From: Terriglobia bacterium
Lineage (GTDB): Bacteria > Acidobacteriota > Terriglobia > UBA7540
Length of the DNA: 33,817 bases
Direction of reading: 5' to 3'
Assembly (NCBI GenBank): GCA_050745605.1
Contig: JBOGKI010000001.1
Coordinates: 1-33,817 of the forward strand
The notes under the pieces: model-generated
Seen by the model: only the letters and a program-made list of their open reading frames with translations
Database searches by the model: none
What the model was told of the DNA's origin: nothing
Translations under genes and position numbers: made by a program
Part shown: one piece after another, positions 8,931 through 31,731 of the stretch
Position numbering within the stretch: position 1 is the first letter of the stretch
How the letters are laid out: each line of letters starts with the position of its first letter

Positions 8931-8994
8931 CTGGGGCGATAAGAGCGCGGCGCATCCCAGCACAAGCTTGTGCGCAGTAACGAGGGAGGATTCT

Positions 8995-10530
8995 ATGCCA
9001 GTCACGGTCACCTATCCAGGCGTCTACATCGAAGAAATCCCCAGCGGCGTCCACACGATTACGGGCGTCGCCACGTCGATTGCGGCTTTCGTGGGCTGGG
9101 CACCCCAGGGCCCCACCGACTCGGCGCAACTGGTCCTGAGCTGGCCCGACTATTACCGGCAGTATGGCGGTCTCGACTCGCGCAGCCTGCTCGGCTACGC
9201 GGTATCGCAGTTCTTTGGCAACGGCGGCACACAGGCTTACATCATTCGGGTGGTGGCGAGCGATGCTGCGACTGCGAGCACCAGCCCGACGGTGGCCGCC
9301 GGCACGCTGACGATCTCGGCTCAGAGTCAGGGCGGGTGGGCGAACAGCTACGGCATCCTGATCAAGAACCAAAGCGGAGGCACCAACCGTTTCCGATTGC
9401 AGATTGCTTACGCGCCGTCGGGCACTCCGACGCCACCACCGGTCGTGGTGGAGTCTTTTGAAAACCTCTCGATGACCAGTCCCGATATCCAGGGACGCTA
9501 CATTGCAGACATCGTCAACGCGCAATCGAACTTTGTCACCGTGGCCGTGACCGGCACGCCGACAGCGCCGCCCGCTGACATCACCACCCCGCAGAACCTG
9601 GCGGGCGGTAAAGATGGAACGGTGCTCACTCCAGGCACTTCCACCGGAACCTTTGAAAACGCGGTGCTCCCAGGCAGCGGAGCGGGGGGTGTGCACTTTT
9701 TGGAGCACGTGGACCTGTTCAATCTGCTGTGCGTTCCGGGTGAAGGTGATCCCACCACTCTTTCCTCGCTCGAGACCTTTTGCCGCGCTCACCGTGCTTT
9801 TCTGATTGCCGACTGCGCCGAGGCCGATACGCTCACGACCCTGCAGAATGGCCCGAGCTCCAGCATCACGGGCAATGACGGCATCAATGCGGCTTTCTAC
9901 TTCCCCTGGATCAATGCGCCGGACCCGCTGAACCAAGGGGGGACGGGCCCGTTCCCGCCTGGCGGCTTTGTGGCCGGTATCTATGCCGCGACTGACGGCA
10001 GCCGGGGCGTTTGGAAGGCTCCGGCGGGGACGGCAGCAAGTTTGACGGGCGTACTCGGTGTCAGCGTTCCCTTGAACGATCCCGAAAACGGCATCTTGAA
10101 TCCCGTAGCGGTGAACTGCATCCGCAACTTCAGCGTCTACGGCACGGTAGTGTGGGGCGCGCGCACGCTTCAGGGCAATGACGAAATCGGTTCGGAATGG
10201 AAGTACGTTCCCGTCCGCCGCACGGCGCTTTACATCGAAGAGAGTCTGTATCGCGGCACCAAGTGGGCGGTGTTCGAGCCGAATGACGAACCGCTCTGGT
10301 CACAACTGCGGCTGAACGTCGGGGCGTTCATGCACGACCTGTTCCGCAAAGGCGCCTTCCAGGGGCAGACGCCGCAAGACGCTTACTTCGTGAAGTGCGA
10401 CAGCACCACGACCACCCAGAGCGATATCAACTTGGGAATCGTGAACATTGTGGTCGGCTTTGCTCCGCTCAAACCCGCCGAGTTTGTGGTCATTCAGATC
10501 CAGCAGATGGCCGGCCAGATTGCTACGTAA
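8995..10530 (+). CDS. contractile tail sheath protein (Afp2-4/Pvc2-4-like)
   Basis: The N-terminus MPVTVTYPGVYIEEIPSGVHTITGVATSIAAFVGWAPQGP is the canonical phage-sheath signature. 511 aa. Start taken at the ATG behind GAGGGAGGA rather than the ORF-track start at 8902. Confidence 0.93.
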   Translation: MPVTVTYPGVYIEEIPSGVHTITGVATSIAAFVGWAPQGPTDSAQLVLSWPDYYRQYGGLDSRSLLGYAVSQFFGNGGTQAYIIRVVASDAATASTSPTVAAGTLTISAQSQGGWANSYGILIKNQSGGTNRFRLQIAYAPSGTPTPPPVVVESFENLSMTSPDIQGRYIADIVNAQSNFVTVAVTGTPTAPPADITTPQNLAGGKDGTVLTPGTSTGTFENAVLPGSGAGGVHFLEHVDLFNLLCVPGEGDPTTLSSLETFCRAHRAFLIADCAEADTLTTLQNGPSSSITGNDGINAAFYFPWINAPDPLNQGGTGPFPPGGFVAGIYAATDGSRGVWKAPAGTAASLTGVLGVSVPLNDPENGILNPVAVNCIRNFSVYGTVVWGARTLQGNDEIGSEWKYVPVRRTALYIEESLYRGTKWAVFEPNDEPLWSQLRLNVGAFMHDLFRKGAFQGQTPQDAYFVKCDSTTTTQSDINLGIVNIVVGFAPLKPAEFVVIQIQQMAGQIAT

Positions 10531-10562
10531 GCACGCGACGTAAGGACGCAAGGAGGACTTTC

Positions 10563-11090
10563 ATGGCTGAATTTACCGTTAACGCCCAGCGCTTCGACCC
10601 GTACAAGAACTTCAAGTTCCGGCTGAAGTGGGACAACACCTATGTGGCCGGGGTAAGCAAGGTCAGCATGCTGAAGCGGACCACTGAGGTGGTGAAACAC
10701 CGCGAAGGCGGCGACCCTTCAAGCAGCCGCAAATCGCCCGGGCGTACCGAATACGACGCCATCACGCTGGAGCGCGGTGTGACCCACGATTTGGCGTTTG
10801 AGCAATGGGCCGGCAAGGTTTGGGCTCTCGGCAACGGGCTGGGGCAGGAAGTGTCCCTGAAAGACTTCCGGAAAGACATCACGATTGAGGTTTATAACGA
10901 GGCTGGCCAGAAGGCCCTGGCCTACAACGTTCACCGTTGCTGGGTGTCAGAGTACCAGGCGATGCCGGACTTTGACGCCAACGCCAACGCCGTGGCCATC
11001 CAGCATATCAAGCTGGAGAACGAAGGCTGGGAGCGGGACCTTTCGGTAACGGAGCCCACCGAGCCGTCCTTCAACGTCCCGACAGGATAA
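10563..11090 (+). CDS. tail tube protein (T4 gp19-like, Afp1/5-like)
   Basis: FDPYKNFKFRLKWDNTYVAGVSKVS...HREGGDPSSSRKSPGRTEYDAITLERGVTHD is typical of the gp19-like 'conserved phage tail region' tube family. AAGGAGGA Shine-Dalgarno before the ATG at 10563. Confidence 0.9.
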   Translation: MAEFTVNAQRFDPYKNFKFRLKWDNTYVAGVSKVSMLKRTTEVVKHREGGDPSSSRKSPGRTEYDAITLERGVTHDLAFEQWAGKVWALGNGLGQEVSLKDFRKDITIEVYNEAGQKALAYNVHRCWVSEYQAMPDFDANANAVAIQHIKLENEGWERDLSVTEPTEPSFNVPTG

Positions 11091-11096
11091 CAGAAG

Positions 11097-11831
11097 ATGC
11101 GCGCGCTGTCGGCGTCGGAGCTTCTGGAAGTGTGGGAGCGTGGGCTGGTTCAGGGACCGGTGGAGCGGGCGCTGACACTGTGGGGAGCGGCCTGCCCGGA
11201 GACGCCGCGCGAGGGCCTGGCCGCGCTCAGTATCGGACGCCGGGATGCCGGCCTGCTGACGCTCCGCGAATGGACTTTCGGTCCTCAATTGGCCAGTCTG
11301 GCAACCTGCCCCCACTGCGGCCAGCAACTCGAACTCACTTTCAACGTCGAGGACATACGCGTGACCCCGGCGGCGGAACCGGCCGCGGAGTCTATGATGA
11401 CGGTGGCCGGTTACGAGCTGCAGTTCCGGCCGCCGAACAGTATGGATATCGCTGCGGCCGTTGACGGGTCCGGGACCGGTCGCGAGCGAAGGACGTTGTT
11501 TGAGCGCTGTCTGATGGCGGCTCGCTGGCAGGGCGAACCGGCAACGCCGGACGAACTGCCGCCGGAGGTGGTTGACGCCATGGTGGACGGGATGGCTGCG
11601 ATGGATCCTCAAGCCGACATTGAGCTCAGCATCTTGTGTCCGTCGTGCGGCCAGCGATGGCACGCGGTGTTTGACATCGTCTCCTTCTTCTGGAGTGAGA
11701 TCGACGCTTGGGCCCGCCGGATACTGCGCGAGGTCCACGTCCTGGCGTCCGCCTATGGCTGGGGCGAGCGTGAGATTCTGGCTTTGAGCCCGTGGCGGCG
11801 GCAACTCTACCTTGAGATGGTGGGCGGATGA
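11097..11831 (+). CDS. CIS-associated protein with two CxxC pairs (putative split zinc ribbon), function unknown
   Basis: 244-aa ORF 6 nt after the tube gene. CPHC at aa 71-74 and CPSC at aa 181-184. Its stop overlaps the next start (ATGA). No family name recalled. Confidence 0.75.
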   Translation: MRALSASELLEVWERGLVQGPVERALTLWGAACPETPREGLAALSIGRRDAGLLTLREWTFGPQLASLATCPHCGQQLELTFNVEDIRVTPAAEPAAESMMTVAGYELQFRPPNSMDIAAAVDGSGTGRERRTLFERCLMAARWQGEPATPDELPPEVVDAMVDGMAAMDPQADIELSILCPSCGQRWHAVFDIVSFFWSEIDAWARRILREVHVLASAYGWGEREILALSPWRRQLYLEMVGG

Positions 11832-12694
11832 GCGACTTCCTGGCGCATCTGGCGGCAAGAAGCTCGGGGTCGGGCGAGATCATCAGGCCGCGAGTCGCCT
11901 CGCTTTTTGAACCGTTGCCGTCGCCTGTCGGGCCCATCGGGCTGGGCGGCGGATTCCCGACGGCCTCAGAACCGTTTGTTACCGAGCGTCCGGTATTCGA
12001 GGAGAGCGAGGCCCGTGTTTCGGCCGAGCGGTCCGCAAGTCCTGTGGCCGGATTGTCGAACGCACGGACGGAGGGCCGGCCGGACGAGCGTCTGCCGCAG
12101 GGCCGTTTGCCGACGCGGGACTTTGCCTCGCTGCCGCGTCCAGGAGTACAACTCGTGGCTGAGGAAGCCCTTTCCCAACTGCCGGGCTCCGAGGCTCCAT
12201 GGCCTCGGTCCGCGGGGAACGTTGTGCGGGTCTCGGCCGCGCTGCCGGCGGAATCCCCTGGCGACCGCGCGCCCAGCAGCTTGCAAACGCCCAAGCTGGG
12301 AAGCGACCGCAAACCGCCCGCCGGGGACAGTCGCGAGGCTCGATCGCAGGGGCCTGAACACAAGCCTCCCCTTGACGGAAATCGAGATCCGGACAGCCGT
12401 CCCAGCGAGCTCTCTCTCCTTTCCAGACCGAACCCGGCCGACGCGATTCTGCAGCCACACCTCAAGGCCGCGCCCCAGACCGACCATCCGTGGCCGAAGC
12501 GGGCGCGACCGGCGGTGGAACCAGAGCCTACGATTCAAGTGACCATCGGCCGCATCGAGGTGCGAGCGACGTCAACGCCAGCCCCAGCGTCTGCGAAGGA
12601 ACGCCAGGTGCCTCGCGTCATGAGTCTGGATGAGTACTTGCAGCGCCGAAGCGGTCGAGGCGGCGGCCGAGGTGGCGCCGGAGGCGGCGAGTGA
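11828..12694 (+). CDS. disordered Pro/Ser/Arg-rich protein, candidate tape-measure/length-determining protein
   Basis: 288 aa and low complexity, except for the N-terminal FLAHLAARSSGSGEIIRPR and the C-terminal TIQVTIGRIEVRA...MSLDEYLQRR followed by GRGGGRGGAGGGE. Both ends are translationally coupled. The functional call rests on position only. Confidence 0.55.
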   Translation: MSDFLAHLAARSSGSGEIIRPRVASLFEPLPSPVGPIGLGGGFPTASEPFVTERPVFEESEARVSAERSASPVAGLSNARTEGRPDERLPQGRLPTRDFASLPRPGVQLVAEEALSQLPGSEAPWPRSAGNVVRVSAALPAESPGDRAPSSLQTPKLGSDRKPPAGDSREARSQGPEHKPPLDGNRDPDSRPSELSLLSRPNPADAILQPHLKAAPQTDHPWPKRARPAVEPEPTIQVTIGRIEVRATSTPAPASAKERQVPRVMSLDEYLQRRSGRGGGRGGAGGGE

Positions 12695-13908
12695 GCAACG
12701 CCTTGGCCATCGCCGCCGTGACTGCCACCCTTGAGGCCATCGTCGGGAAGGCCGTGACCGCCGACCCCGACCTGAACGATACCCAGATGACAGCGCTGCC
12801 ACCAGACAAGGCGCGCGGCGCCATCACCACCAATCAACTCAACCTGTTTCTCTACCAGATTCTGCCTGACGCGGCCTGGCGCAACATGGATGTCCCGACA
12901 CAGGTGAAGCCCGGCGAAACCGGCATGCCACCGCTGGCCCTGACCCTGCATTACCTGATGACGGCCTACGCTCGCGAAAACGACACCAGCGAGCCGTTTG
13001 ACCACCATCTGCTCGGCAAAGCCATGAGCGTCCTTTACGATCACGCCCTGCTCGGTCCGGACGAAATCAAGCTGGCTCTGCCGGGGAGCGGCCTGGAGCG
13101 CCAGGTGGAGCGGGCGCGCATCACCCTGCAGCCCCTGTCGGTGGAGGAGATTTCCAAGCTGTGGACGGGTTTCGCCACCCAGTACCGGCTCTCGGTGGGC
13201 TACGAAGTTTCTGTCGCGCTGATTGACAGCACCCAGCCGGTGAAGACGCCATTGCCGGTGTTGACGCGCGGAACACAGGACCGGGGACCGTCCTCGCAGG
13301 CGGACCTGATTCCTCCGTTTCCGGCTCTTGACACCGTGCTACTCCCCAACCAGCAGCCGAGCGCCAGGCTGGGCGATACGCTCACCCTCGCCGGTCACGA
13401 CCTGGACGGCACCAACCTGGGGGTGATGTTCGACCACGCGCTGTGGACGAGTCCGCAGGAAGTCGCGCCCAGCCCCGGCGGCACTTCCACCCAACTTACC
13501 GTGACGATTCCCAACCTGCCGGCGGCGTGGCCGGCAGGCTTTTACACCCTGGCGGTGCTCGTGCAGCGGCCGGGCGAGACGTATCGCCGGACTACGAATC
13601 AGCTCTCGTTTTCGCTTGCACCCGGCATCGCCATTGCGCCCAACACGGCCCCGGCGGGGAACGTGACGTTCACCGTGACCTGCAGCCCCGAGGTCTGGCC
13701 GCAGCAGAGCGTGTCATTGCTCCTGGGCGACCAGGATCTTCCCTCGCCCTCCGTCCTCAGCAAGACCGCCACCTTGACGTTCACTACCAGCCTGGTGAAG
13801 GGCGATTATTTTGTCCGCTTGCGCGTGGATGGCGTGGACAGCCTGCTGGTGGATCGTTCCGTCACCCCACCGGTATTCGATCCGACGCAGAAGGTGACAA
13901 TTACATGA
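12691..13908 (+). CDS. DUF4255 (Pvc16/Afp16-like) tail terminator/cap protein with C-terminal extension
   Basis: GTG start overlapping the upstream TGA. MSNALAIAAVTATLEAIV... and NQLNLFLYQILPDAAWRN match my memory of DUF4255 proteins. The C-terminal ~200 aa is beta-rich and looks like two Ig/IPT-like repeats. Confidence 0.8.
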   Translation: MSNALAIAAVTATLEAIVGKAVTADPDLNDTQMTALPPDKARGAITTNQLNLFLYQILPDAAWRNMDVPTQVKPGETGMPPLALTLHYLMTAYARENDTSEPFDHHLLGKAMSVLYDHALLGPDEIKLALPGSGLERQVERARITLQPLSVEEISKLWTGFATQYRLSVGYEVSVALIDSTQPVKTPLPVLTRGTQDRGPSSQADLIPPFPALDTVLLPNQQPSARLGDTLTLAGHDLDGTNLGVMFDHALWTSPQEVAPSPGGTSTQLTVTIPNLPAAWPAGFYTLAVLVQRPGETYRRTTNQLSFSLAPGIAIAPNTAPAGNVTFTVTCSPEVWPQQSVSLLLGDQDLPSPSVLSKTATLTFTTSLVKGDYFVRLRVDGVDSLLVDRSVTPPVFDPTQKVTIT

Positions 13909-16049: not shown

Positions 16050-16420
16050 AAATCAACGTTCGCATCGAGCGGCTGATTCTGGACGGCCTGCCCGTTGCGA
16101 CACTGCAGGGTCCGCAGGTCGCACGCGGTGTCGAAAAGGAACTGGCGCGCCTGCTCGCGGTGAATGGGTTGTCCGACGAGCTTCGAGGCGGCATCGCCGT
16201 CCCTAGCGTGCACGCCGGGGCCGTCCGGCTTGGCAAAGAGACTCAACCGGCAAGATTGGGGCAGAGCATCGCGCGTGCCGTTCACGAAGGCATTGGGAAC
16301 TGTGGTGCAGGCATCTTGCCTGCAGAAGACAGGGTTCGTAGCATTGCAGCCTGGAAGGCTGCACCACAAGAAGGGACGAGGCCTGTGCACCTTCCAGAGC
16401 CGGGAGGGAGTCCGCGATGA
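16046..16420 (+). CDS. small hypothetical protein coupled between the ATPase and the DUF4157 gene
   Basis: 124-aa ORF (MKINVRIERLILDGLPVATLQGPQ...) with ATGA overlaps at both ends. No family recognised. Confidence 0.6.
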   Translation: MKINVRIERLILDGLPVATLQGPQVARGVEKELARLLAVNGLSDELRGGIAVPSVHAGAVRLGKETQPARLGQSIARAVHEGIGNCGAGILPAEDRVRSIAAWKAAPQEGTRPVHLPEPGGSPR

Positions 16421-20543: not shown

Positions 20544-20559
20544 GCTAGAGGTGTATGAC

Positions 20560-20883: not shown

Positions 20884-20889
20884 GGTGCC

Positions 20890-24089: not shown

Positions 24090-27000
24090 ACCAACCGTGC
24101 GGCTGCTGCGCCGGCATTCAGATTGTCACCCCGGAACCGGAGGCCAACCGGCCCGGCTTGAGCGCCATCGTCTACCGGGTAGGCACGCAGGCCACGTTTT
24201 TCGAGACCATGCTGGCGCGGCTCTCGAACCTCTATCTCGACCTGCCCGCCGCCGATGGCTCGGGCTCGCTCGACCGCATCTCCCCGCTTGCGGCGCTCAC
24301 CACCCGCGAGCTCGACGATCCTTCCATCGCCCTGCTCGACGCCTGGGCCACCGTGGCCGACGTGCTCACTTTCTATCAGGAACGCATCGCCAACGAGGGA
24401 TACCTGGGCACGGCCACGGAGCGCCTTTCCATCCTTCAACTGGCTAGGCTAGTAGGCTACAGGCTCCGGCCCGGCGTTTCCGCCTCGGTATACCTGGCCT
24501 TCACCGTGGCCGGCGGCTTCACCGGCGCGATTCCTTCCGGCACCCGCGCCCAGAGCATCCCCGGCGCCGGCCAGATGCCGCAGTTCTTTGAGACTTCGGC
24601 CTCGCTCGCCGCCCGCGACGTCTGGAACGATCTCGGCGTGCGCCTCACCCGGCCGCAGATCATCACCCTCGGTAACGACGGTCCGGGCCCGCAGCCGCTT
24701 CCCTTCGATCCAGACTTTGACGCCCGCACGCGTGACACCGTCTATTTTCAGGGCATTTCAACCAACTTGAAGGTCGGCGACCGGCTGCTGTTCGTCGCCG
24801 GTGAAGGTTTGGGGCAGCAGGCGCTGCGCCCTATCGTCTCCGTGGAGGCGCAAGCCAGCCAGAACCGCACGGAAGTGGTGTTGCAGGAGGCGCCGCCACA
24901 GCTCCTGCAAAGCGGCAACGCCGTACCGGCGGCGGTGGGAACCCTGCAGGCGGCGTTCAACCCTTTTATTGAGGGCGCCGCCAGCGACTTTCCCGGCAGT
25001 GACACGGCTAACCGGGTCGTGGCCATTCTCACCACCCTCCTCCAGAACGCCGCATCGGCTGCGAGCGCTACGGCCGTGGGCGCGATGGTGCAGGCCGTCG
25101 CGCCCCAGGTTCAGCAGTTGCACGACAACGCCGCGAAACGCGGCTTTACGCGCCTCGAGCCGTGGACCGCGGACATTCTTGCCTCCCTCAACGCCCTCGC
25201 TTTGCAACTGCCCAGCCTCGACGGCGGTGATTTTCCCGTGGGAGGCGGCGTGATCGTGACGCAGGCAATGGCCACCCTGGCGCCTTCTGCCCTGGCCGGT
25301 CTCACGGCCATCGTTGACCAACTGGCCCTGCCGCCCTCCGTGCAACCGGCCAACTCCATTCGGCTGGCCCGGACGGTGGCCCAGACCTTCTCCCCTCAAT
25401 CCGATACCGCCCCGCGGCTTCTAGCCGCCTTCAAGCCTGCGGCGGCCCTCACGCTTTACAAGGCCTGGGGGAATATCGCGCCGGTTTCACCGTCGCTCCC
25501 GATTGAGGTGAACGCCGTTCGCGCGAAGGCCACGCTCTTTGCGAGCACTTATGGCGGGCCTGCCACTGTTCCCCAGGCCGGTGGCACCGTCACTTTTTCG
25601 AACGCGCCGACGATCGCCAATGCCTGGACCGGTCTGGTCCCCATCACCGCGGGTACCACCACCCCCTCCGGCCCGCCGACGGCCGTCGCGCTGGATGCCA
25701 CCTATGAACAGATCCAGATCGGCACCTGGGTGGCCATCGACCGCCCGTCCACGGACAGCTCCGGGAATCCGATCCGCACCACCACCTATCACCAGGTGCA
25801 AGCCGCGCAAACGCAGAGCATGGACACCACCACCGGCTTCACCGCCAAGGTGACCGTGTTAACGCTCAATCCCCTATGGCTGAGCGATTCTTCCAAACTG
25901 ACTAACGATCTGACCGGCGCAACGGGCACCGCCGTGCTTCGCGGCACGGTGGTTTACGCCCAGGCGGAGACGCTCGGCCTCGCCGAAGAGCCGCTCGACC
26001 GGGACGTGGAAGGCAACACCATCGAACTCGACGGGCTGTACGACGGCCTGGAATCCGGGCGCTGGATCATCGTATCCGGCGAGCGGACTGATATCACAGA
26101 CTCTGCCGGCTCGACCACCGCGACCGGAGTCACTGGCGACGAGCTGGTGATGATTGCCGCCGTTACCCAGGGAGCGGGCAAGCAATCGTGTCTGCCGTAC
26201 ACGACCAGCACCATACCGTTCACGAGCATTTACTACGTGACTGACCCGAATGCCGCCGGCGACCAACTGGTGGTCGGCGTGCCGGCGGCGCTGCCGTCTG
26301 TTTTCCTGAACGCCGTGCCGCTGCCAAGCGCCACCAACCAGCAGATTTGCGATCCCGTCCAGCTTGCGCCCGGGTTCTATGCCAATGCCTACGTTCCGAC
26401 CGCAGCAGAGCGGGGCGGCGACTTCAGCGCCTTCGGCGCGCCGCTCATCGACCCGGCCAACAATCAGCCTTTTGCGGGCGGGCAGATTCCGGCGGCGCGC
26501 TCGGACCCGACCGTTTCGAGCGGCGCAGTCTTCGCTTGGCGGACAGGCTCGGTGGCCAGCGGCTCGGACACGCCGCATACGACGCTGGTGCTCGCCAACA
26601 ACCTTGCTTACAAGTACGACAGTACCAAAGTCACCGTCTATGGCAATGTGGCCAAGGCCACGCACGGGCAGACGGTGGGCGAGGTGCTCGGCGATGGCAA
26701 CGGCGGACAGTCGCTGCAAAAATTCACGCTCGGACAGTCGCCCCTCACTTACCTGCCTGCTCCGACGCCTGCGGGCGCGAAGAGCACCCTGGTGGTGCGG
26801 GTGAACGAGGTCGAGTGGCACGAGGCGGACAGCCTCGCCGGGCTTGGCCCCCGCGACCGCGACTACATCACCCAGGCCGACGATGCCCAGAAGACCGCCG
26901 TGATCTTCGGCACTGGCGACCACGGGGCGCGCCTGCCGACCGGCAGTTCCAACGTCAAGGCGACCTACCGATACGGCATCGGTGCGTCGGGCAACGTGGA

Positions 27001-27781
27001 CGCGCAACAGATCAGCCAGCTCGCAACGCACCCGCTGGGCGCCCAGGGGGTCATCAACCCGCTGCGGGCGAGCGGCGGCGCCGACCGCGACAGCCGCGAC
27101 CAGGGGCGGCACAACGCGCCCCTGGCGGTGGAGGCGCTCGACCGCTTGGTGTCGGTGGAGGACTACGCCGACTTCGCCCGAACCTACGCCGGCATCGGCA
27201 AGGCCAGCTCGGTGCGGCTTACGGACGGCCGCCGCCTCGTGGTCCACGTCACCATCGCCGGTGCCGAAGATATTCCGATTGACCCCAACTCCGACCTTTA
27301 CCAGAACTTCGTCCAGGCGCTCTATCAGAACGGAGACCCTTACCAGGCTATTCAGGTGGCGCTGCGGAAGCTCAAGCTGCTGGTGATGAGCGCCGGGGTG
27401 AAGGTGCTGCCGGACTATCTGTGGGAGTCGGTCGAGCCGAACATCCGGGCGGCGCTGCTCGGTACCTTCGGCTTCGATCAGCGCGACCTGGGTCAGAGTG
27501 CGTTTCTGGGCGAGGTCATCAGCACCATGCAGGCCGTGGAGGGCGTGAGCTACGTGAATGTGACCACATTTGACTCCGTGGCCGAAGACGTGACGGCAGC
27601 GCAATTGGCGTCGCTCACAGATCCCAAGTTGGGGCTGCAGTTGCAGGATGTCGTGGAGGCAGACTTGGCAAAGGTCGTTCCGACCGAGACGGATCCGACG
27701 AAGCGCATCGTGCCGGCGGAACTGGCGATCGTGACCCCGGACATTCCGGACACCGTGATTCTGACGCAGATTACGACGTGA
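24086..27781 (+). CDS. second giant baseplate assembly protein (J-like paralogue, Afp12/gp7-position), 1231 aa
   Basis: The N-terminus CGCCAGIQIVTPEPEANRPGLSAIVYRVGTQATFFETML and ALLDAWATVADVLTFYQERIANEGYL resemble the 'putative baseplate assembly protein' family. YRYGIGASGNVDAQQI is a J-type motif. ATGA overlap with the upstream gene. Confidence 0.75.
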   Translation: MNQPCGCCAGIQIVTPEPEANRPGLSAIVYRVGTQATFFETMLARLSNLYLDLPAADGSGSLDRISPLAALTTRELDDPSIALLDAWATVADVLTFYQERIANEGYLGTATERLSILQLARLVGYRLRPGVSASVYLAFTVAGGFTGAIPSGTRAQSIPGAGQMPQFFETSASLAARDVWNDLGVRLTRPQIITLGNDGPGPQPLPFDPDFDARTRDTVYFQGISTNLKVGDRLLFVAGEGLGQQALRPIVSVEAQASQNRTEVVLQEAPPQLLQSGNAVPAAVGTLQAAFNPFIEGAASDFPGSDTANRVVAILTTLLQNAASAASATAVGAMVQAVAPQVQQLHDNAAKRGFTRLEPWTADILASLNALALQLPSLDGGDFPVGGGVIVTQAMATLAPSALAGLTAIVDQLALPPSVQPANSIRLARTVAQTFSPQSDTAPRLLAAFKPAAALTLYKAWGNIAPVSPSLPIEVNAVRAKATLFASTYGGPATVPQAGGTVTFSNAPTIANAWTGLVPITAGTTTPSGPPTAVALDATYEQIQIGTWVAIDRPSTDSSGNPIRTTTYHQVQAAQTQSMDTTTGFTAKVTVLTLNPLWLSDSSKLTNDLTGATGTAVLRGTVVYAQAETLGLAEEPLDRDVEGNTIELDGLYDGLESGRWIIVSGERTDITDSAGSTTATGVTGDELVMIAAVTQGAGKQSCLPYTTSTIPFTSIYYVTDPNAAGDQLVVGVPAALPSVFLNAVPLPSATNQQICDPVQLAPGFYANAYVPTAAERGGDFSAFGAPLIDPANNQPFAGGQIPAARSDPTVSSGAVFAWRTGSVASGSDTPHTTLVLANNLAYKYDSTKVTVYGNVAKATHGQTVGEVLGDGNGGQSLQKFTLGQSPLTYLPAPTPAGAKSTLVVRVNEVEWHEADSLAGLGPRDRDYITQADDAQKTAVIFGTGDHGARLPTGSSNVKATYRYGIGASGNVDAQQISQLATHPLGAQGVINPLRASGGADRDSRDQGRHNAPLAVEALDRLVSVEDYADFARTYAGIGKASSVRLTDGRRLVVHVTIAGAEDIPIDPNSDLYQNFVQALYQNGDPYQAIQVALRKLKLLVMSAGVKVLPDYLWESVEPNIRAALLGTFGFDQRDLGQSAFLGEVISTMQAVEGVSYVNVTTFDSVAEDVTAAQLASLTDPKLGLQLQDVVEADLAKVVPTETDPTKRIVPAELAIVTPDIPDTVILTQITT

Positions 27782-27788
27782 TTCGTAG

Positions 27789-27830
27789 GGCCGCGGCTTG
27801 CCGCGGCCAAGGCCGACCCCAGGATCGGCC
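27789..27830 (+). promoter_or_regulatory. two tandem GC-rich hairpins in the only sizeable intergenic gap of the operon
   Basis: ggccgcgg-cttg-ccgcggcc (27789-27808, 8-bp perfect stem) and ggccga-ccccagga-tcggcc (27811-27830, 6-bp stem). No U-tract follows. GGAG Shine-Dalgarno and the ATG at 27861 lie downstream. Confidence 0.35.
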
Positions 27831-27860
27831 CTGAAAGAGCGGTAGTTGGAGACCTGACGC

Positions 27861-30047
27861 ATGAACGCTGACCCTGACCGGCTCTACGAACTGGTGCCCG
27901 CGATCTATCGCCTGCGGGACGCGGAGCAGGGCTATCCTCTGCGCGGCTTGTTGCGCGTCATCTCCGAACAGGTGAACCTGGTCGAGGCCGACATCGCCCG
28001 GCTTTACGAGAACTGGTTCATTGAGACTTGCCAGGACTGTGTGGTGCCGTACATCGGCGAGCTGATCGGCTATACGGTGCTGCCCGACGGGACAGAGGTG
28101 GCCGAGGTCGAGACGGCGCGGGGCGAGGCGCGCAACCGCATCTTGATTCCGCGGCGCGAGGTGGCCAATACCATCCACTACCGTCGGCGCAAGGGTACGC
28201 TGGCGCTGCTGGAGGATCTGGCCCAAGCCGTCGCCGGATGGCCGGCGCGGGCGGTGGAGTTCTATCGGCTGCTCGGGTGGACCCAGAACATCAATTACCT
28301 GCACCTCGACCGGGGCCGGACGGTGGACGTCCGGGATGGCGACGCGCTCGACGACATCAATAGTGCCTTCGACGAATTAGGGCATACTATTGATGTAAGA
28401 TGTAAAAGTGTGGAGTTTCTCCACACTTTTCCGAGGGCCGGAAATATTCCCAAAGTTGGGGTATTTGTGTGGCGGCTGACGTCGTATTCGGTGACCGAAA
28501 CTCCCGCCTTCTGCTTTGAGGAAGAAGGCCCTAACTGCTTTCTGTTCAGTGTATTAGGCAATGACGCCCAACTGTTCACCAGACCCCAGCTTCCCTCGCC
28601 TCATCCCCCGGGCAAGCTCAACTTGCCCATGCCGATCCGTCGCCGCGACTTCGAGACAATTGAGACAGCCGAGATAGCCGAGTCGAGTGATTCGGGCGTA
28701 CCGGCTTACTACGGCGACGGCAAGAGTCTGCAGGTCTGGACCGGGTCGCCGCGCCAGCCCGTCCCAGCGAAGTACATCGTCCCGGCGGACCTGACCGACT
28801 GGACCTATCGTCCGCTACCCGGCCAGGTCGCAGTGGACCCTGTGTTGGGTCGCATCGCTTTCCCGCCGGGTCAATCCCGCCGACAAGGCGTGTGGGTTTC
28901 GTATTATTACGGATTCAGCGCCGACATTGGTGGCGGAGAATACGACCGGCCGCTTGCGCAGCCTGCCAGCTACAAGCTTTATGTTGTCGGCGAGCAGCAA
29001 CCCTTCGCCCGTATCAACGACGCCCTGACGCAATGGAAGAGCGATGGGCCGGCAAACGCCGTGATTGAGATCGCTGACAGCGGCGTCTATGTCGAGCCCG
29101 TCAGCATCGCGCTGAAGGCCAAGCAGACGCTGCAGATTCGAGCCGCCAATCGCAAGCGCCCGGTACTCCGTCTCCTGGACTGGCAGACGTCCCAGCCCGA
29201 CGACCTGACGGTTACCGGTGAGCCGGGTACTTGGTTCACCCTCGACGGCCTGCTAATCACGGGGCGGGGAGTCCAAGTTGAGGGCAACGTGGCGGGCGTG
29301 ACCATCCGACACTCGACGCTCGTGCCGGGATGGGGTCTGCAGTGTGACTGCGAGCCGCTCCACCCCACCGAGCCGAGCCTGGAGCTCGTCAATTCGCCGG
29401 ATTGCATCAGCATCGAGCACAGCATCATCGGCAAGATCCAGGTGGATCGCGACGAAGTGAAGGAAGACCCTGGGCTGATCCACATTAGTGACAGCATCGT
29501 GGATGCCACCAGCCCGAAGCGGGTCGCGCTGGGCGCGCCCGAGAGCCTGTGCGCTTACGCGATCCTGACCATCAAGCGCAGTACGGTTTTGGGGCAGATT
29601 CAGACCCACGCCATTGCGCTCGCCGAGAACAGCATCTTTATGGGTTCGATTCTGGCCTGCCGCCGGCAGCAAGGCTGCATGCGGTTCTGCTACGCGCCGC
29701 CCGGCTCGCGCACGCCGCGGCGGTACCACTGCCAGCCTGATCTGGTGGAGGCGGCGGTGGCGGACCTCTTCACCCGTGGCGACCTTACGACGGCGGAAAG
29801 GGACGCGTTGTTGGCGAGCGAGCGGCTCCGCGTCGAGCCCGAGTTCAACAGCACACGTTACGGCGCGCCCACTTACTGCCAGCTTGCAGACGACTGCGCC
29901 TGCGAAATCAGGCGCGGGGCCGACGACGAGTCGGAGATGGGCGTTTTCCATGACTTGTACCAGCCCCAGCGGCTGGCCAACCTGCGCACCCGGCGTGACG
30001 ATTACACGCCGGCCGGTATGAATGCCGAAATCATTTACGCCAGTTAG
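27861..30047 (+). CDS. phage tail protein (P2 gpI-like N-domain) with C-terminal parallel beta-helix-like repeats; candidate fibre/receptor-binding protein
   Basis: LYELVPAIYRLRDAEQGYPLRGLLRVISEQV...ARLYENWFIETCQDCVVPYIGELIGY matches the gpI-like 'phage tail protein domain'. Later there are periodic rungs (VIEIADSGVY, LQIRAAN, FTLDGLLITG, VTIRHSTLVPG, ISIEHSIIG, IHISDSIVDA, LTIKRSTVLG, LAENSIFMG). Confidence 0.75.
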   Translation: MNADPDRLYELVPAIYRLRDAEQGYPLRGLLRVISEQVNLVEADIARLYENWFIETCQDCVVPYIGELIGYTVLPDGTEVAEVETARGEARNRILIPRREVANTIHYRRRKGTLALLEDLAQAVAGWPARAVEFYRLLGWTQNINYLHLDRGRTVDVRDGDALDDINSAFDELGHTIDVRCKSVEFLHTFPRAGNIPKVGVFVWRLTSYSVTETPAFCFEEEGPNCFLFSVLGNDAQLFTRPQLPSPHPPGKLNLPMPIRRRDFETIETAEIAESSDSGVPAYYGDGKSLQVWTGSPRQPVPAKYIVPADLTDWTYRPLPGQVAVDPVLGRIAFPPGQSRRQGVWVSYYYGFSADIGGGEYDRPLAQPASYKLYVVGEQQPFARINDALTQWKSDGPANAVIEIADSGVYVEPVSIALKAKQTLQIRAANRKRPVLRLLDWQTSQPDDLTVTGEPGTWFTLDGLLITGRGVQVEGNVAGVTIRHSTLVPGWGLQCDCEPLHPTEPSLELVNSPDCISIEHSIIGKIQVDRDEVKEDPGLIHISDSIVDATSPKRVALGAPESLCAYAILTIKRSTVLGQIQTHAIALAENSIFMGSILACRRQQGCMRFCYAPPGSRTPRRYHCQPDLVEAAVADLFTRGDLTTAERDALLASERLRVEPEFNSTRYGAPTYCQLADDCACEIRRGADDESEMGVFHDLYQPQRLANLRTRRDDYTPAGMNAEIIYAS
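28404..28430. repeat. perfect 12-bp inverted repeat with 3-nt spacer inside the tail-protein CDS (intrinsic-terminator-like)
   Basis: aaaagtgtggag-ttt-ctccacactttt read directly. This is an 8-bp G/C-containing stem flanked by A4 and T4, embedded in a locally AT-rich patch (24/60 G+C by hand count around it). Confidence 0.6.
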
Positions 30048-30060
30048 GGAGAAGAGAACC

Positions 30061-31731
30061 ATGAAGGCCGACCTTACCCGCAACACCTTTGATCCTTCCA
30101 AGCACTTCACGCGCGTCATCATGCAACAGGGACGGGTGCAGCTCGATGCCGACTGGAACGAACAGGATGCCATTCTCGTGCGCAACCTGCGCGCTTTCGT
30201 GAGAGACGCCCTCGACCCGGCTTTTGGTCCGCCCGGCAGCCAGGGGTTTCTGATTACCCCGGCGCGCGCCAAGGACTTCCAGATCGGCGGCGGACCCTAC
30301 TACGTTGACGGCATCCGGTGCGAGGTGGATTCCGCACCGGTCTTGATTACCGGCTTTCCTTCGACAAACACGAAACAGGTCCAGGTGGGGGACTGGATCG
30401 CAGACGGCGTCCAGTTTGAAAAGCTCCAGTACGTTATGGTCTCGGGCGGGTCCAGCGCGCCTCCGGCGGCGCTGGTCCAGATCACGGACGTGGACCCGGG
30501 GAATCGGATCCTGACCTTCGATACCGATGTGAGTGGCTTCAAGAAATTCAGTCCGCAAGTGCAGCACGTGATTACCTACCTCAGCCAGCCGGACCATCCA
30601 TTGCCCGATCCGGGAATGCCGAGTGGCGGAGCGCTCTCGGCGGGTAGTTACCAGGTTTACCTCGATGTGTGGGAACGCCACATCACTTACATCGAAGACG
30701 ACAGCATCCGCGAAGTGGCTTTGAACGGGCCGGACACGGCAACCCGGGCCAAGCTGGTGTGCCAGGTGAAGGTGACAACACCCTGCCAGAGCCAAGGCAC
30801 GAGCGACGCGGCCGGCGGCGCGGTTTGCTGCACGGCGCAGCAATTGACGAGCACCTTCCAGCCCGGCAACCGCGGCCGGTTGAAAGCCAGGGCCAAGCAA
30901 GCGTCGGCCTCGACCGATCCTTGCATCATCTCTCCGCAGGCGCGCTATCGCGGGCCGGAAAACCAGCTTTACCGAGTGGAGATTCACACCGGCAGCCAGG
31001 ACGCTCAGGGCAATGCAACCACGCCCACGTTCAAGTGGTCACGGGAGAACGGCTCGGTCGTCTTTCCGATCGTCAGCATGGCCACTGCCAGTGGAAGCGC
31101 TACAACCACCGTTACGCTGGAAAACCTCGGGCGCGATGATCGCTTGGGGTTGGCGGTGGGCGAGTGGGTGGAGATTCAGGACGACACCTACGTGCTGCAG
31201 AACCGCGCCGAACCCCTGCTCAAGGTACAGTCCATTGACCGCGCCAGTCTGACGGTGACGCTGACAGGCGCGCCCAGCTCCAACGTGGGGCAGTTCCCGG
31301 GGCTGCATCCCTTGCTGCGGCGCTGGGATTACCAGGCAGGTGACCCGGCCGAGGGAGGGCTGCAGTTGAGCACGACGGACAACGCCGCACTGGTTCAGGA
31401 GGACGGAAATTGGCACGAATTGGAAGACGGAATCCAAATACAGTTTCAGGCCCCGGACGCCGGCCAGCCACCAACCTCCTATCGCACCAGCGACTACTGG
31501 CTGATTCCGGCGCGCACCGCCACCGGTGACGTCGAGTGGCCGATTGCAACCGATACTCAGGGCAATCCCGAGTTGGACAGCCAAAACAATACCATTCCCA
31601 TCGCCCTGCCTCCCCTGGGAGTGCAGCATCACTACGCGCCGCTCGCAGTCATCACCCTTGATTCCGGAGGGGCCGTTATCCCTCAAGCCCAGAACGGCGG
31701 CGTTCAGGATTGCCGGAAGCCACTGAAGTGA
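30061..31731 (+). CDS. conserved CIS-distal protein of unknown function (possibly DUF6519-like)
   Basis: 556 aa, with GGGAGAAGAGA before the ATG at 30061. The N-terminal KADLTRNTFDPSKHFTRVIMQQGRVQLDADWNEQ is a motif I recall from uncharacterised proteins next to phage-tail-like clusters. The DUF number is from memory and unverified. Confidence 0.65.
   Translation: MKADLTRNTFDPSKHFTRVIMQQGRVQLDADWNEQDAILVRNLRAFVRDALDPAFGPPGSQGFLITPARAKDFQIGGGPYYVDGIRCEVDSAPVLITGFPSTNTKQVQVGDWIADGVQFEKLQYVMVSGGSSAPPAALVQITDVDPGNRILTFDTDVSGFKKFSPQVQHVITYLSQPDHPLPDPGMPSGGALSAGSYQVYLDVWERHITYIEDDSIREVALNGPDTATRAKLVCQVKVTTPCQSQGTSDAAGGAVCCTAQQLTSTFQPGNRGRLKARAKQASASTDPCIISPQARYRGPENQLYRVEIHTGSQDAQGNATTPTFKWSRENGSVVFPIVSMATASGSATTTVTLENLGRDDRLGLAVGEWVEIQDDTYVLQNRAEPLLKVQSIDRASLTVTLTGAPSSNVGQFPGLHPLLRRWDYQAGDPAEGGLQLSTTDNAALVQEDGNWHELEDGIQIQFQAPDAGQPPTSYRTSDYWLIPARTATGDVEWPIATDTQGNPELDSQNNTIPIALPPLGVQHHYAPLAVITLDSGGAVIPQAQNGGVQDCRKPLK

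What the first reader, a model, noticed from the sequence alone, without database searches (positions are those of the whole stretch)
8995..31731. 22.7-kb headless contractile injection system (eCIS/PLTS-type) operon with non-Afp/PVC architecture
Seen: 19 same-strand ORFs with gaps of at most 79 nt. Eleven junctions have overlapping stop/start codons (ATGA, GTGA or TAATG at 11828, 12691, 13905, 16046, 16417, 17874, 18533, 18904, 20028, 21249, 24086). Motif-level matches cover sheath, gp19-like tube, DUF4255 cap, dedicated AAA+ ATPase, DUF4157, LysM/gpX, gpD, gpV, PAAR-like, gp25/W, two J-like giants and a gpI-like tail protein. Capsid, portal, terminase, integrase, lysis genes and T6SS TssJLM/ClpV-type genes are absent from the window. 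Established: a phage baseplate and tail plus a DUF4255 cap and a dedicated AAA+ ATPase, without head genes, is the signature of extracellular contractile injection systems (Afp, PVC, MAC, AlgoCIS, Streptomyces CIS). Inference: the cap, ATPase and tape-measure-like genes sit between the tube and baseplate modules, whereas in Afp/PVC they are at the 3' end. The block order sheath-tube-X-X-cap and V-W-J-I mirrors phage P2. The layout, together with a neighbouring LuxR regulator, is closest to my memory of the poorly characterised lineage that includes the cytoplasmic Streptomyces CIS. Whether the particle is released or acts intracellularly is therefore open.
Basis: partly seen in the sequence, partly recalled or inferred. 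Interest (0 to 1): 0.85.

Follow-up and report, generated by a model that had tools for sequence, protein, structure and literature searches.

The report
Phage-tail-like injection system operon
This is a genuine but ordinary member of a very common, already catalogued family of headless phage-tail "syringes" (contractile injection systems) in soil bacteria, here in an acidobacterium; how this subtype is deployed has not been shown experimentally.

Summary
Window 8995-31731 carries 18 (not 19) co-directional genes at 99.7% coding density. Profile searches recover sheath, gp19 tube, Pvc16_N/DUF4255 cap, WHD+AAA ATPase, DUF4157/eCIS_core, CIS_tube initiator, gpV OB-fold, DUF4280 (PAAR-like), gp25, two TIGR02243 baseplate proteins and DUF6519. 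The LysM, gp27/gpD-like and gpI-like calls rest on weaker, family-level evidence.

The flanks are cellular genes (metK, ahcY, tldD/pmbA, tRNA-Glu). Relatives on long contigs also lack head, terminase and lysis genes.

The non-Afp/PVC layout is not new. It is the standard lineage II layout: two afp11 copies, split afp8 and a PAAR-like gene fit subtype IIa/IIc, not the Streptomyces coelicolor IId type. It also matches the DUF6519/eBAP5 subtype described in 2026. The same genes in the same order occur in 56 genomes from many phyla, and thousands of metagenomic homologues exist.

The ATPase-to-tube-initiator interval is a hypervariable cargo slot holding 0-6 DUF4157 genes. The window has a minimal version, whose one DUF4157 protein has a rare C-terminal domain of unknown function.

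Whether the particle is released or acts from within the producer remains open.

Verdict: new member of a known kind; modest interest.

The parts
8010..9011 (-). LuxR/GerE-type regulator, divergent from the operon. These coordinates are the maximal ORF. The real start is probably near 8668 or 8756, because the maximal ORF overlaps the sheath start.
   Evidence: GerE HTH, E 2.2e-18. Response-regulator-like models match only from about residue 121. GerE regulators lie next to 25.8% of eCIS loci (PMC8213781).
8902..8930 (+). Sigma-70-like promoter match (TTGACA-17-TAATAT), about 65 nt upstream of the sheath ATG.
   Evidence: 10 of 12 consensus positions. This is a consensus match only, not evidence of function.
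8995..10530 (+). Contractile sheath (Cis2/Afp2-like), 511 aa.
   Evidence: Phage_sheath_1 and Phage_sheath_1C. Best solved matches are 9ezm (3.5e-78) and 8bky (5.4e-74).
10563..11090 (+). Inner tube protein (gp19/Cis1-like), 175 aa.
   Evidence: Phage_T4_gp19, 5.2e-45. TIGR02241, 2.5e-44. Solved CIS tubes match.
11097..11831 (+). T4_baseplate-family protein with Cys-pair (zinc-ribbon-like) motifs, 244 aa. Probably a hub or assembly factor.
   Evidence: PF12322, 4.4e-14. PHROG 150 'baseplate hub', 9e-10. Conserved in this slot in relatives. No solved homologue.
11828..12694 (+). Pro/Ser/Arg-rich protein of 288 aa with a conserved C-terminus. Function unknown.
   Evidence: No family hit. Only weakly conserved in relatives.
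12691..13908 (+). Tail terminator/cap (Pvc16/Afp16-like, DUF4255), with a C-terminal extension of about 200 aa.
   Evidence: Pvc16_N, 1.8e-44, residues 9-191. Weak TIG hit at residues 218-298.
13905..16049 (+). Dedicated AAA+ ATPase (Cis15/Afp15-like), 714 aa.
   Evidence: WHD variant, 5.9e-19, and AAA, 1.9e-26.
16046..16420 (+). Small 124-aa protein that follows the ATPase. Its N-terminal motif, MKINVRIERLILDG, recurs in relatives.
   Evidence: No family hit. Homologous N-termini occupy the same slot in several relatives. GC3 is 0.63.
16417..17874 (+). DUF4157/eCIS_core protein of 485 aa; putative cargo/effector. From the N-terminus: HExxH domain, one hydrophobic Gly-rich segment (residues 210-228), a long helix, then a rare beta-rich C-terminal domain.
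   Evidence: eCIS_core, 2.2e-32. The C-terminal half has 4 homologues among 5.8e9 protein clusters and 34 representative clusters among 1.84e9. It sits in the hypervariable slot. GC3 is 0.67.
17874..18536 (+). Tube initiator (CIS_tube, Cis5/Afp5-like), 220 aa.
   Evidence: PF19266, 28.0 bits against a cut-off of 27. 60-88% identical in relatives.
18533..18907 (+). LysM/gpX-like baseplate protein (Afp7-like), 124 aa.
   Evidence: LysM, E 0.0096, below threshold. The orthologue in L063 is annotated 'tail protein X'.
18904..20031 (+). gp27/gpD-like spike base, 375 aa. This is the N-terminal half of a split VgrG/Afp8.
   Evidence: Family profile hits VgrG 9rce_F, E 3.6e-5. Weak VgrG_rel hit.
20028..20543 (+). 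gpV/gp5 OB-fold spike protein, 171 aa.
   Evidence: Phage_base_V, 2.4e-22.
20560..20883 (+). PAAR-like spike tip (DUF4280), 107 aa.
   Evidence: DUF4280, E 1.9e-4, 22.4 bits against a cut-off of 26.3. 57-90% identical in relatives.
20890..21252 (+). gp25/gpW baseplate wedge protein, 120 aa.
   Evidence: GPW_gp25, 1.3e-18.
21249..24089 (+). First Afp11/Cis11-like (gp6/J-like) baseplate protein, 946 aa.
   Evidence: TIGR02243, 6.4e-86, above cut-off. PHROG baseplate wedge, 5.6e-19.
24086..27781 (+). Second Afp11/Cis11-like baseplate protein, 1231 aa.
   Evidence: TIGR02243, 2.2e-70. Baseplate_J, 3.3e-8. S. coelicolor baseplate J chain 9gtp_1K, 8.9e-6.
27861..30047 (+). Peripheral baseplate protein of 728 aa. 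The N-terminus is gpI/Mu gp48-like, supported only at the family level. The centre is a right-handed beta-helix.
   Evidence: No Pfam hit for the window protein. Of 26 homologues' N-termini, 11 hit Phage_Mu_Gp48 and 3 hit Tail_P2_I. The AF2 model reaches pLDDT 70-95 over residues 370-600, with pectin-lyase-fold matches at probability 0.99.
30022..31731 (+). DUF6519 (eBAP5) baseplate-anchored fibre-like protein, 569 aa; an alternative start lies at 30061. Last gene of the operon.
   Evidence: DUF6519, 5.5e-95. Defined as eBAP5 in PMC12923769. Relatives' operons also end here.

Best explanation
The block is one operon of a Terriglobia (Acidobacteriota) chromosome. It encodes a phage-tail-like contractile injection system of lineage II, of the DUF6519/eBAP5 baseplate subtype.

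Shown: three parts.
- Module A: sheath, tube, T4_baseplate-family protein, a disordered protein, Pvc16-like cap and AAA+ ATPase.
- A short cargo slot: a 124-aa protein and one 485-aa DUF4157 protein.
- Module B: tube initiator, LysM/gpX-like protein, split gp27-like and gp5-like spike, PAAR-like tip, gp25, two Cis11/gp6-like proteins, a gpI-like beta-helix protein and DUF6519.

Inferred from the solved Afp, PVC, AlgoCIS and Streptomyces machines:
1. The baseplate assembles around the spike in the cytoplasm.
2. The tube grows from the initiator and the sheath polymerises around it in the extended state.
3. The cap terminates the assembly.
4. The ATPase assists assembly and/or cargo loading.
5. 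The DUF4157 protein is carried in the tube lumen or at the spike.
6. A signal at the baseplate periphery triggers sheath contraction. That signal would come through the beta-helix protein plus DUF6519, probably on binding a surface glycan.
7. Contraction drives the spike, tube and cargo through a target envelope.

The divergent LuxR/GerE regulator probably controls expression.

My best guess, at about 55%, is the classical extracellular mode: release by producer lysis, then binding to another cell. This step is inferred, not shown.
For: Identity of the parts: profile hits above curated cut-offs for 10 of the 18 proteins, counting the two TIGR02243 matches separately. Family-level support covers the LysM, gp27-like, PAAR-like and gpI-like genes.

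Single unit: 99.7% coding density and 11 overlapping junctions. The same genes occur in the same order in 56 genome loci from Acidobacteriota, Proteobacteria, Cyanobacteria, Myxococcota, Chloroflexota, Planctomycetota and others.

Not a prophage:
- The window's flanks are cellular genes.
- Relatives on contigs from 82 kb to more than 300 kb are flanked by cellular genes, and their operons end at DUF6519.
- The best phage sheath is 33% identical.

Host: the 90%-identity MetK cluster holds Terriglobia MAGs.

Cargo slot:
- The ATPase-to-initiator interval ranges from 263 bp to more than 8.5 kb and holds 0-6 DUF4157 genes.
- Those genes carry varied C-termini.
- The window's cargo genes have lower GC3 than the rest of the operon.
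- DUF4157 is a published eCIS toxin marker (PMC8213781).
- A DUF4157 protein in the same slot is a loaded effector in S. davawensis (PMC11126660).

Extracellular leaning:
- A DUF6519 fibre-type protein and a pectin-lyase-like beta-helix sit at the baseplate periphery (PMC12923769).
- No membrane-anchor protein is encoded in the operon.
- The neighbouring TM ORFs are not conserved in relatives.
Against: - No experiment exists for any close relative.
- The two nearest solved sheaths come from systems that do not act as released particles: the membrane-anchored Halogeometricum CIS and the cytoplasmic S. coelicolor CIS (PMC11566945, PMC10066040).
- No lysis cassette is present to release particles.
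- The DUF6519 protein has no extra receptor-binding domain beyond the family domain.
- The gpI-like assignment is sub-threshold for the window protein, and hhalign against P2 gpI alone was not significant.
- The cargo's C-terminal domain has no recognisable fold or activity.
- Subtype placement rests on gene architecture, not on an Afp11 or sheath phylogeny.
Confidence: 0.85

Rival explanations
1. Same machine, different deployment. The particle is not released. It fires from within the producer in one of two ways. Either it is anchored to the cytoplasmic membrane like a T6SS, as in Halogeometricum. Or it is free in the cytoplasm or directed at the producer's own envelope, causing regulated lysis, eDNA release or developmental effects, as in Streptomyces coelicolor and S. 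davawensis.
For: - The nearest solved sheaths are exactly these two systems (PMC11566945, PMC10066040).
- Gene-for-gene orthologues exist on a Streptomyces plasmid.
- The locus-tag numbering given for S. davawensis is consistent with the same gene order (PMC11126660).
- A DUF4157 protein with a hydrophobic segment and a long helix sits immediately upstream of the tube initiator, like the Tme effector.
- No lysis genes were found.
- The DUF6519 protein lacks an added receptor-binding domain.
Against: - No conserved membrane-anchor gene was found. The three TM ORFs next to the operon are absent from relatives.
- Homology to the haloarchaeal anchor Hbor_38620 or to Streptomyces CisA could not be tested.
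- Peripheral beta-helix and fibre-type proteins are more typical of surface binding.
- The host is a diderm, whereas the cytoplasmic examples are monoderm actinobacteria.
Confidence: 0.35
2. A defective prophage remnant or an R-type tailocin. That would be a phage tail used as a bacteriocin that kills by membrane depolarisation, with no cargo delivery.
For: The sheath, tube and V-W-J-I order mirror phage P2. No effector with a recognisable toxic activity was identified.
Against: - The Pvc16_N cap, dedicated AAA+ ATPase, DUF4157 and CIS_tube families are markers of CIS, not of tailocins or myoviruses (PMC6899500, PMC8213781).
- No lysis cassette, integrase or head genes occur here or in relatives.
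- The best phage sheath is only 33% identical.
- The gene set is conserved intact across many phyla, which is not expected of a decaying prophage.
Confidence: 0.04
3. A canonical type VI secretion system.
For: Shared ancestry of the sheath, tube, gp25, VgrG-like and PAAR-like parts.
Against: - No TssB/TssC-type sheath match; all sheath matches are to CIS or phage sheaths.
- No TssJLM, TssK/F/G, TssA or ClpV families in the window.
- Afp11-, cap- and DUF4157-type genes, which are present here, are absent from T6SS i-iii (PMC6899500).
Confidence: 0.01

Closest known systems
DUF6519/eBAP5-type eCIS loci (Levy lab catalogue, Nat Commun 2026, PMC12923769)
   Same: The last gene is a DUF6519 protein. 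It lies downstream of a gpI/Tail_P2_I-type adaptor and the Baseplate_J genes. No Afp12 or Afp13 is present. A pectin-lyase-type beta-helix occurs in the peripheral baseplate proteins.
   Different: The paper reports eBAP5 as correlated with Actinobacteriota. Here the host is a Terriglobia acidobacterium, and the closest relatives are Acidobacteriota and Proteobacteria. The DUF6519 protein is bare, with no macroglobulin shaft or lectin. The beta-helix sits on the preceding adaptor instead.
Lineage II eCIS, subtypes IIa/IIc of dbeCIS (Chen et al. 2019, PMC6899500)
   Same: Two afp11 copies. afp8 split into gp27-like and gp5-like ORFs. A PAAR-like gene is present. No afp14 tape measure and no afp6. 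Cap and ATPase are not at the 3' end.
   Different: Placement on the Afp11 tree was not done, so IIa and IIc cannot be told apart. The only characterised IIa system is archaeal.
Halogeometricum borinquense CIS ('archaeal T6SS', clade IIa; PDB 9ezm; PMC11566945)
   Same: Best-scoring solved sheath (E 3.5e-78). Two cis11 genes. No plug, tape measure or crown genes.
   Different: It is archaeal and plasmid-borne, with two sub-clusters split by an 8.7-kb spacer. It is anchored to the cytoplasmic membrane, and that mode correlates with a conserved 6-TM protein. The operon here encodes no TM anchor, and the neighbouring TM ORFs are absent from relatives.
Streptomyces CIS: S. coelicolor CIS-Sc (IId; PDB 8bky/9gtp) and the S. 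davawensis Tme-carrying CIS (PMC10066040, PMC12237407, PMC11126660)
   Same: Second-best solved sheath (5.4e-74). The baseplate J chain matches Cis11b. A Streptomyces plasmid carries orthologues of the operon's structural genes at 27-81% identity. A DUF4157 protein lies just upstream of the tube initiator, as Tme does.
   Different: S. coelicolor has a single cis11 and a contiguous VgrG (IId), and it depends on the membrane protein CisA. Tme is 2247 aa, the largest ORF of its cluster, and ends in an EndA-like nuclease. The window protein is 485 aa with an unrelated, unassigned C-terminal domain. S. davawensis sequences could not be fetched, so that comparison rests on locus-tag order only.
Afp / PVC (lineage I eCIS)
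   Same: The eight core components are all present: tube, sheath, LysM, VgrG, gp25, Afp11, AAA+ ATPase and cap.
   Different: One sheath gene instead of three. No Afp14 tape measure, Afp12 or Afp13 adenovirus-like fibre. Cap and ATPase lie mid-operon. Cargo lies mid-operon rather than at the 3' end. The spike is split.

Membership tests
eCIS/CIS superfamily (core set of Chen et al. 2019) | Tube (Afp1/5) and sheath (Afp2-4) homologues | tested here: met
   Phage_T4_gp19, 5e-45. CIS_tube. Phage_sheath_1 and Phage_sheath_1C. Solved CIS sheaths and tubes are the top matches.
eCIS/CIS superfamily (core set of Chen et al. 2019) | Afp16-type cap (DUF4255/Pvc16_N) and Afp15-type AAA+ ATPase | tested here: met
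   Pvc16_N, 1.8e-44. WHD + AAA, 5.9e-19 and 1.9e-26.
eCIS/CIS superfamily (core set of Chen et al. 2019) | Afp11 (Baseplate_J/gp6-like), Afp9 (gp25) and Afp8 (VgrG-like) | tested here: met
   TIGR02243 twice, above cut-off. GPW_gp25 and Phage_base_V. The gp27-like half is supported by a profile hit to VgrG, 3.6e-5.
eCIS/CIS superfamily (core set of Chen et al. 2019) | Afp7 LysM-domain baseplate protein | tested here: inconclusive
   LysM, E 0.0096, below threshold. The positional orthologue in L063 is annotated 'tail protein X'.
Lineage I (Afp/PVC-type) | Afp14 tape measure and Afp12/Afp13 fibre present; ATPase and cap at the 3' end; multiple sheath paralogues | tested here: not met
   No such families were hit. 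There is a single sheath gene. Cap and ATPase are genes 5 and 6 of 18.
Subtype IId (S. coelicolor CIS type) | Single afp11 and a single contiguous afp8 (PMC6899500) | tested here: not met
   Two TIGR02243 genes, 21249-24089 and 24086-27781. The spike is split between 18904-20031 and 20028-20543.
Subtype IIa/IIc | Two afp11 copies, afp8 split into gp27 and gp5 ORFs, afp10 (PAAR) present | tested here: met
   The PAAR-like DUF4280 hit is sub-threshold (22.4 bits against 26.3) but is conserved in all relatives.
Subtype IIa/IIc | Placement within the IIa or IIc clade of the Afp11 tree | not testable with these tools
   dbeCIS reference sequences and profiles are not available here, and no supplement is held for PMC6899500.
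DUF6519/eBAP5 subtype (PMC12923769) | DUF6519 protein downstream of the baseplate genes | tested here: met
   DUF6519, 5.5e-95. It is the last gene of the operon, and the same holds in L060, L061 and L063.
DUF6519/eBAP5 subtype (PMC12923769) | Tail_P2_I-type adaptor instead of Afp12 | tested here: inconclusive
   The window protein has no hit. Of 26 homologues' N-termini, 11 hit Phage_Mu_Gp48 (best 0.0012) and 3 hit Tail_P2_I (best 0.0065). hhalign against P2 gpI gave E 0.66. The N-terminus was not modelled.
Tme-like tape-measure-related effectors (S. davawensis, PMC11126660) | N-terminal DUF4157, and the gene immediately upstream of the tube initiator | tested here: met
   eCIS_core at residues 64-141. 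The gene ends at 17874, where the CIS_tube gene starts.
Tme-like tape-measure-related effectors (S. davawensis, PMC11126660) | Largest ORF of the cluster; multiple TM helices and coiled coils; remote homology to phage tape measures | tested here: not met
   At 485 aa it is the seventh-largest ORF of the cluster. It has one hydrophobic segment (residues 210-228) and one long predicted helix (residues 234-267). No tape-measure family was hit.
Canonical T6SS | TssB/C sheath, TssJLM membrane complex, TssK/F/G, ClpV | tested here: not met
   None were found among the window ORFs. The sheath matches only CIS and phage sheaths.
Intact or defective myovirus prophage | Capsid, portal, terminase, integrase and lysis genes linked to the tail genes | tested here: not met
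   Absent from the window and from 10-kb flanks of relatives on long contigs. The window is a whole contig, so this organism's more distant flanks remain unseen.

The most novel reading that the evidence does not exclude
This very abundant soil CIS subtype, in a diderm acidobacterium, is not a released eCIS. It acts from inside the producer, either membrane-anchored or directed at the producer's own envelope, as in Halogeometricum or Streptomyces. On this reading the short DUF4157 protein serves both as a tape-measure-like lumen protein and as a membrane-active effector, through its single hydrophobic segment and its rare beta-rich domain.
Probability: 0.25. Interest if true: 0.6.

Novelty: new member of a known kind. 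Interest (0 to 1): 0.3.

Why it matters
Contractile injection systems are being engineered as programmable protein-delivery devices, and they shape microbial interactions. This subtype is among the most abundant in public, largely soil-derived data. The subtype-specific 728-aa baseplate protein alone returned 7,717 significant clusters. It occurs in Acidobacteriota, a dominant and poorly studied soil phylum. Yet no close relative has been studied experimentally.

The practical value of this window lies in three things:
- A clear parts list.
- Identification of the mid-operon cargo slot, which would be the natural place for payload swapping.
- A list of cultured relatives in which the mode of action could be settled: Collimonas, Paraburkholderia, Inquilinus, Dyella and Sorangium.

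The window itself adds no new principle.

Tried and rejected
1. Looking up the source contig with the DUF6519 protein as I delimited it (start 30022) found nothing on record. The window turned out to be the whole contig.
I repeated it with database homologues.
3. The AF2 model of the 728-aa protein left the N-terminal 206 residues unmodelled, at pLDDT about 30. The gpI-like fold could therefore not be tested structurally. Foldseek saw only the beta-helix.
4. hhalign of the 728-aa family against P2 gpI alone was not significant, at E 0.66.
5. The AF2 model of the DUF4157 protein was poor, at pLDDT 42. Its Foldseek matches are meaningless. A 25-sequence profile found no solved homologue.
6. phmmer found no solved homologue for the cap, for Cis11a or for the T4_baseplate-like protein.
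7. I looked for a repeat of the tRNA-Glu 3' end as an island boundary and found none.
8. The downstream 4-TM ORF (31873-32328) and the upstream TM ORFs are not conserved in any relative, so I rejected them as candidate membrane anchors.
9. The two hairpins in the 79-nt spacer are not better than shuffled sequence, z = -1.6.
10. The open frame at the window's end was not confirmed as a transposase.
11. No supplement of the dbeCIS paper is held, so subtype labels of named genomes could not be looked up.

Full report
OBSERVATION

Window 8995-31731 contains 18 + strand genes. Ten are ATGA/GTGA 4-nt overlaps and one is TAATG. The largest intergenic gap is 79 nt, at 27782-27860. A sigma-70-like match (TTGACA-17-TAATAT, 8902-8930) and a strong Shine-Dalgarno sequence precede the first gene. 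The window is the entire 33,817-bp contig.

GENE CONTENT

These families were hit above curated cut-offs (Pfam; NCBIfam):
- sheath (Phage_sheath_1/1C)
- tube (Phage_T4_gp19, 5e-45)
- a T4_baseplate-family protein with Cys-pair motifs (4e-14; PHROG 'baseplate hub')
- cap (Pvc16_N/DUF4255, 1.8e-44)
- WHD + AAA ATPase
- DUF4157/eCIS_core (2e-32)
- CIS_tube initiator
- gpV OB-fold (2e-22)
- gp25 (1e-18)
- two paralogous TIGR02243 baseplate proteins of 946 and 1231 aa (6e-86 and 2e-70)
- DUF6519 (5.5e-95)

- LysM reaches only E 0.0096. The orthologue on a Streptomyces plasmid is annotated 'tail protein X'.
- PAAR-like DUF4280 scores 22.4 bits against a cut-off of 26.3.
- The gpD/gp27-like gene has no Pfam hit. 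A 14-sequence profile matches a solved VgrG at 3.6e-5.
- The 'gpI-like' 728-aa protein has no hit at all on its own.

For the 728-aa protein I scanned the N-terminal 215 residues of 26 homologues. Eleven hit Phage_Mu_Gp48 (best E 0.0012) and three hit Tail_P2_I (best E 0.0065). hhalign against P2 gpI alone was not significant, although the ExW..(D/E)TC....(V/L)P(Y/W) motif aligns. An AF2 model left the N-terminus unmodelled. It gave a confident right-handed beta-helix for residues 370-600, with pectin-lyase-fold matches.

Two small genes have no family: 11828-12694 (288 aa, proline-rich) and 16046-16420 (124 aa).

CONTEXT

Upstream lie metK, ahcY, tldD, pmbA, a tRNA-Glu and a divergent LuxR/GerE regulator. 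Downstream lies a non-conserved 4-TM ORF, followed by largely non-coding sequence. No head, terminase, integrase, lysis or T6SS membrane-complex families were found.

The 90%-identity cluster of MetK contains Terriglobia MAG proteins, so the host is an acidobacterium.

Relatives on long contigs have cellular genes upstream. Their operons end at DUF6519, followed by cellular genes. The best sheath match in 50,697 phage records is 33% identical.

RELATIVES

The sheath search hit its 8,000-candidate ceiling, and its 120 best hits are 63-100% identical. The subtype-specific 728-aa protein returned 7,717 significant clusters, none carrying a Pfam annotation.

A genome scan found 56 loci. They come from Acidobacteriaceae (up to 82% identity), Vicinamibacterales, Collimonas, Paraburkholderia, Rhizomicrobium, Inquilinus, Methylomirabilis, Calothrix, Sorangium, Dyella, Chloroflexota and Isosphaerales. 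A tblastn matrix shows the same genes in the same order.

A Streptomyces europaeiscabiei plasmid carries orthologues of the operon's structural genes at 27-81% identity. Its baseplate module is inverted and its DUF4157 gene lies elsewhere. One cyanobacterial locus has the sheath-to-ATPase module inverted. The system therefore consists of two separable modules.

CARGO SLOT

The interval between the ATPase and the tube initiator varies from 263 bp to more than 8.5 kb. It carries 0-6 DUF4157 genes. These have diverse C-termini, including weak transglutaminase-like, Gly-zipper and thioredoxin + M48 hits. LGT-like and HEAT-repeat genes accompany them.

The window has a minimal slot of 1.8 kb, with the 124-aa gene and one 485-aa DUF4157 protein. 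Both have lower GC3 (0.63 and 0.67) than the other 16 genes (0.71-0.86).

The C-terminal half of the DUF4157 protein is rare:
- It has four homologues among 5.8 billion clusters in the word-indexed search.
- It has 34 representative clusters among 1.84 billion in a full HMMER scan.
- In the 24 homologues aligned, the HExxH motif of the N-terminal domain is invariant, and the one locus examined places the gene in the same CIS slot.

The protein has one hydrophobic Gly-rich segment (residues 210-228), a long predicted helix and a beta-rich domain. No fold or solved homologue was recognised.

COMPARISON WITH WHAT IS KNOWN

The eight core eCIS components of Chen et al. (PMC6899500) are all present. 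The same paper states three relevant points:
- Lineage II lacks Afp14.
- Subtypes IIa and IIc have two afp11 copies.
- Subtypes IIa, IIb and IIc have afp8 split into gp27 and gp5 ORFs; PAAR is present in IIa, IIc and IId.

By these criteria the window is IIa/IIc-like and fails the IId definition (S. coelicolor type). Geller et al. (PMC8213781) already describe DUF4157 as a core, toxin-associated eCIS domain, and GerE/LuxR regulators next to 25.8% of loci. The 2026 receptor-binding-domain catalogue (PMC12923769) defines DUF6519 as the eBAP5 fibre anchor, found in loci that use Tail_P2_I-type adaptors and lack Afp12. It calls this a previously missed subtype, correlated there with Actinobacteriota.

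The nearest solved sheaths are Halogeometricum Cis2 and S. coelicolor Cis2. The first is clade IIa and membrane-anchored, an 'archaeal T6SS' (PMC11566945). The second is cytoplasmic (PMC10066040). Both score ahead of PVC, Afp, the Anabaena CIS and AlgoCIS.

In S. davawensis, a DUF4157 protein encoded just upstream of the tube initiator is a loaded, tape-measure-related effector (PMC11126660). The locus-tag order reported there is consistent with the window's gene order, but I could not fetch those sequences. The window's DUF4157 protein shares the slot and the N-terminal domain. It does not share the size, the multiple TM helices or the nuclease domain.

MECHANISM

The parts list and the operon structure are shown. 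The following steps are inferred from solved homologous machines:
1. Cytoplasmic assembly on a spike-centred baseplate.
2. Tube growth from the initiator and sheath polymerisation around it.
3. Capping by the Pvc16-like protein.
4. ATPase-assisted assembly and/or cargo loading.
5. Contraction-driven delivery of the DUF4157 cargo.

The deployment mode is not determined. Two points favour release and binding to another cell:
- The peripheral beta-helix protein and the DUF6519 fibre-type protein.
- The absence of any conserved membrane-anchor gene.

Three points favour an intracellular or anchored mode:
- The identity of the two nearest characterised systems.
- The lack of lysis genes.
- The bare DUF6519 protein.

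I put extracellular at about 55% and anchored/cytoplasmic at about 35%.

VERDICT

The finding is real and was correctly read. It is a new member of a known, catalogued and very abundant kind, not a new architecture. Its main residual interest has three parts. This subtype has no close relative that has been studied experimentally. Its mid-operon cargo slot is clearly delimited. Several cultured relatives exist in which the open question of deployment could be settled.

Noticed in passing
window 16046-17874, compared with L004-L059: The interval between the AAA+ ATPase and the tube-initiator gene is hypervariable among otherwise syntenic loci. It ranges from 263 bp to more than 8.5 kb and holds 0-6 DUF4157 genes, plus LGT-like and HEAT-repeat genes. 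The window's two slot genes have GC3 of 0.63-0.67, against 0.71-0.86 for the rest of the operon.
   Followed up: partly
window 6593-6667: A tRNA-Glu(CTC) gene lies between the housekeeping block (metK, ahcY, tldD, pmbA) and the LuxR-CIS block. No repeat of its 3' end and no integrase were found, so an island boundary is not demonstrated.
   Followed up: partly
window 33616-33816: An open frame runs off the end of the contig (VYIRKTAKSHKGKTYTNYLLVESVATPKGPRQ...). From memory it resembles the N-terminus of an IS-type transposase, which would explain the assembly break. No NCBIfam hit and no plasmid tblastn hit was obtained.
   Followed up: partly
window 8010-9011 (- strand): The maximal LuxR/GerE ORF overlaps the sheath start codon, so the true start is probably at 8668 or 8756. 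Response-regulator models align only from about residue 121 and there is no Pfam Response_reg hit. This suggests a degenerate receiver domain.
   Followed up: no
window 27782-27860: The only sizeable intergenic spacer in the operon (79 nt, between the second Cis11 gene and the 728-aa gene) contains two GC-rich hairpins. Folding energy is not significantly better than shuffles (z = -1.6).
   Followed up: yes
window 12691-13908: The cap protein carries an extension of about 200 residues beyond the Pvc16_N domain. A weak IPT/TIG (Ig-like) hit covers residues 218-298. This may be a decoration at the distal end of the particle.
   Followed up: no
L063 (Streptomyces europaeiscabiei plasmid NZ_CP109155) and L047 (cyanobacterial MAG): The same gene set is rearranged as two modules. 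In L063 the baseplate module is inverted and convergent with the sheath-ATPase module, the DUF4157 gene is upstream and divergent, and a BTAD regulator is adjacent. In L047 the sheath-ATPase module is inverted.
   Followed up: partly
window 5653-6120 (+), 6939-7970 (-), 31873-32328 (+): Three predicted membrane proteins (4, 2-3 and 2-4 TM segments) flank the operon. None has a family hit and none is found next to related CIS loci, so they are unlikely to be system components.
   Followed up: yes
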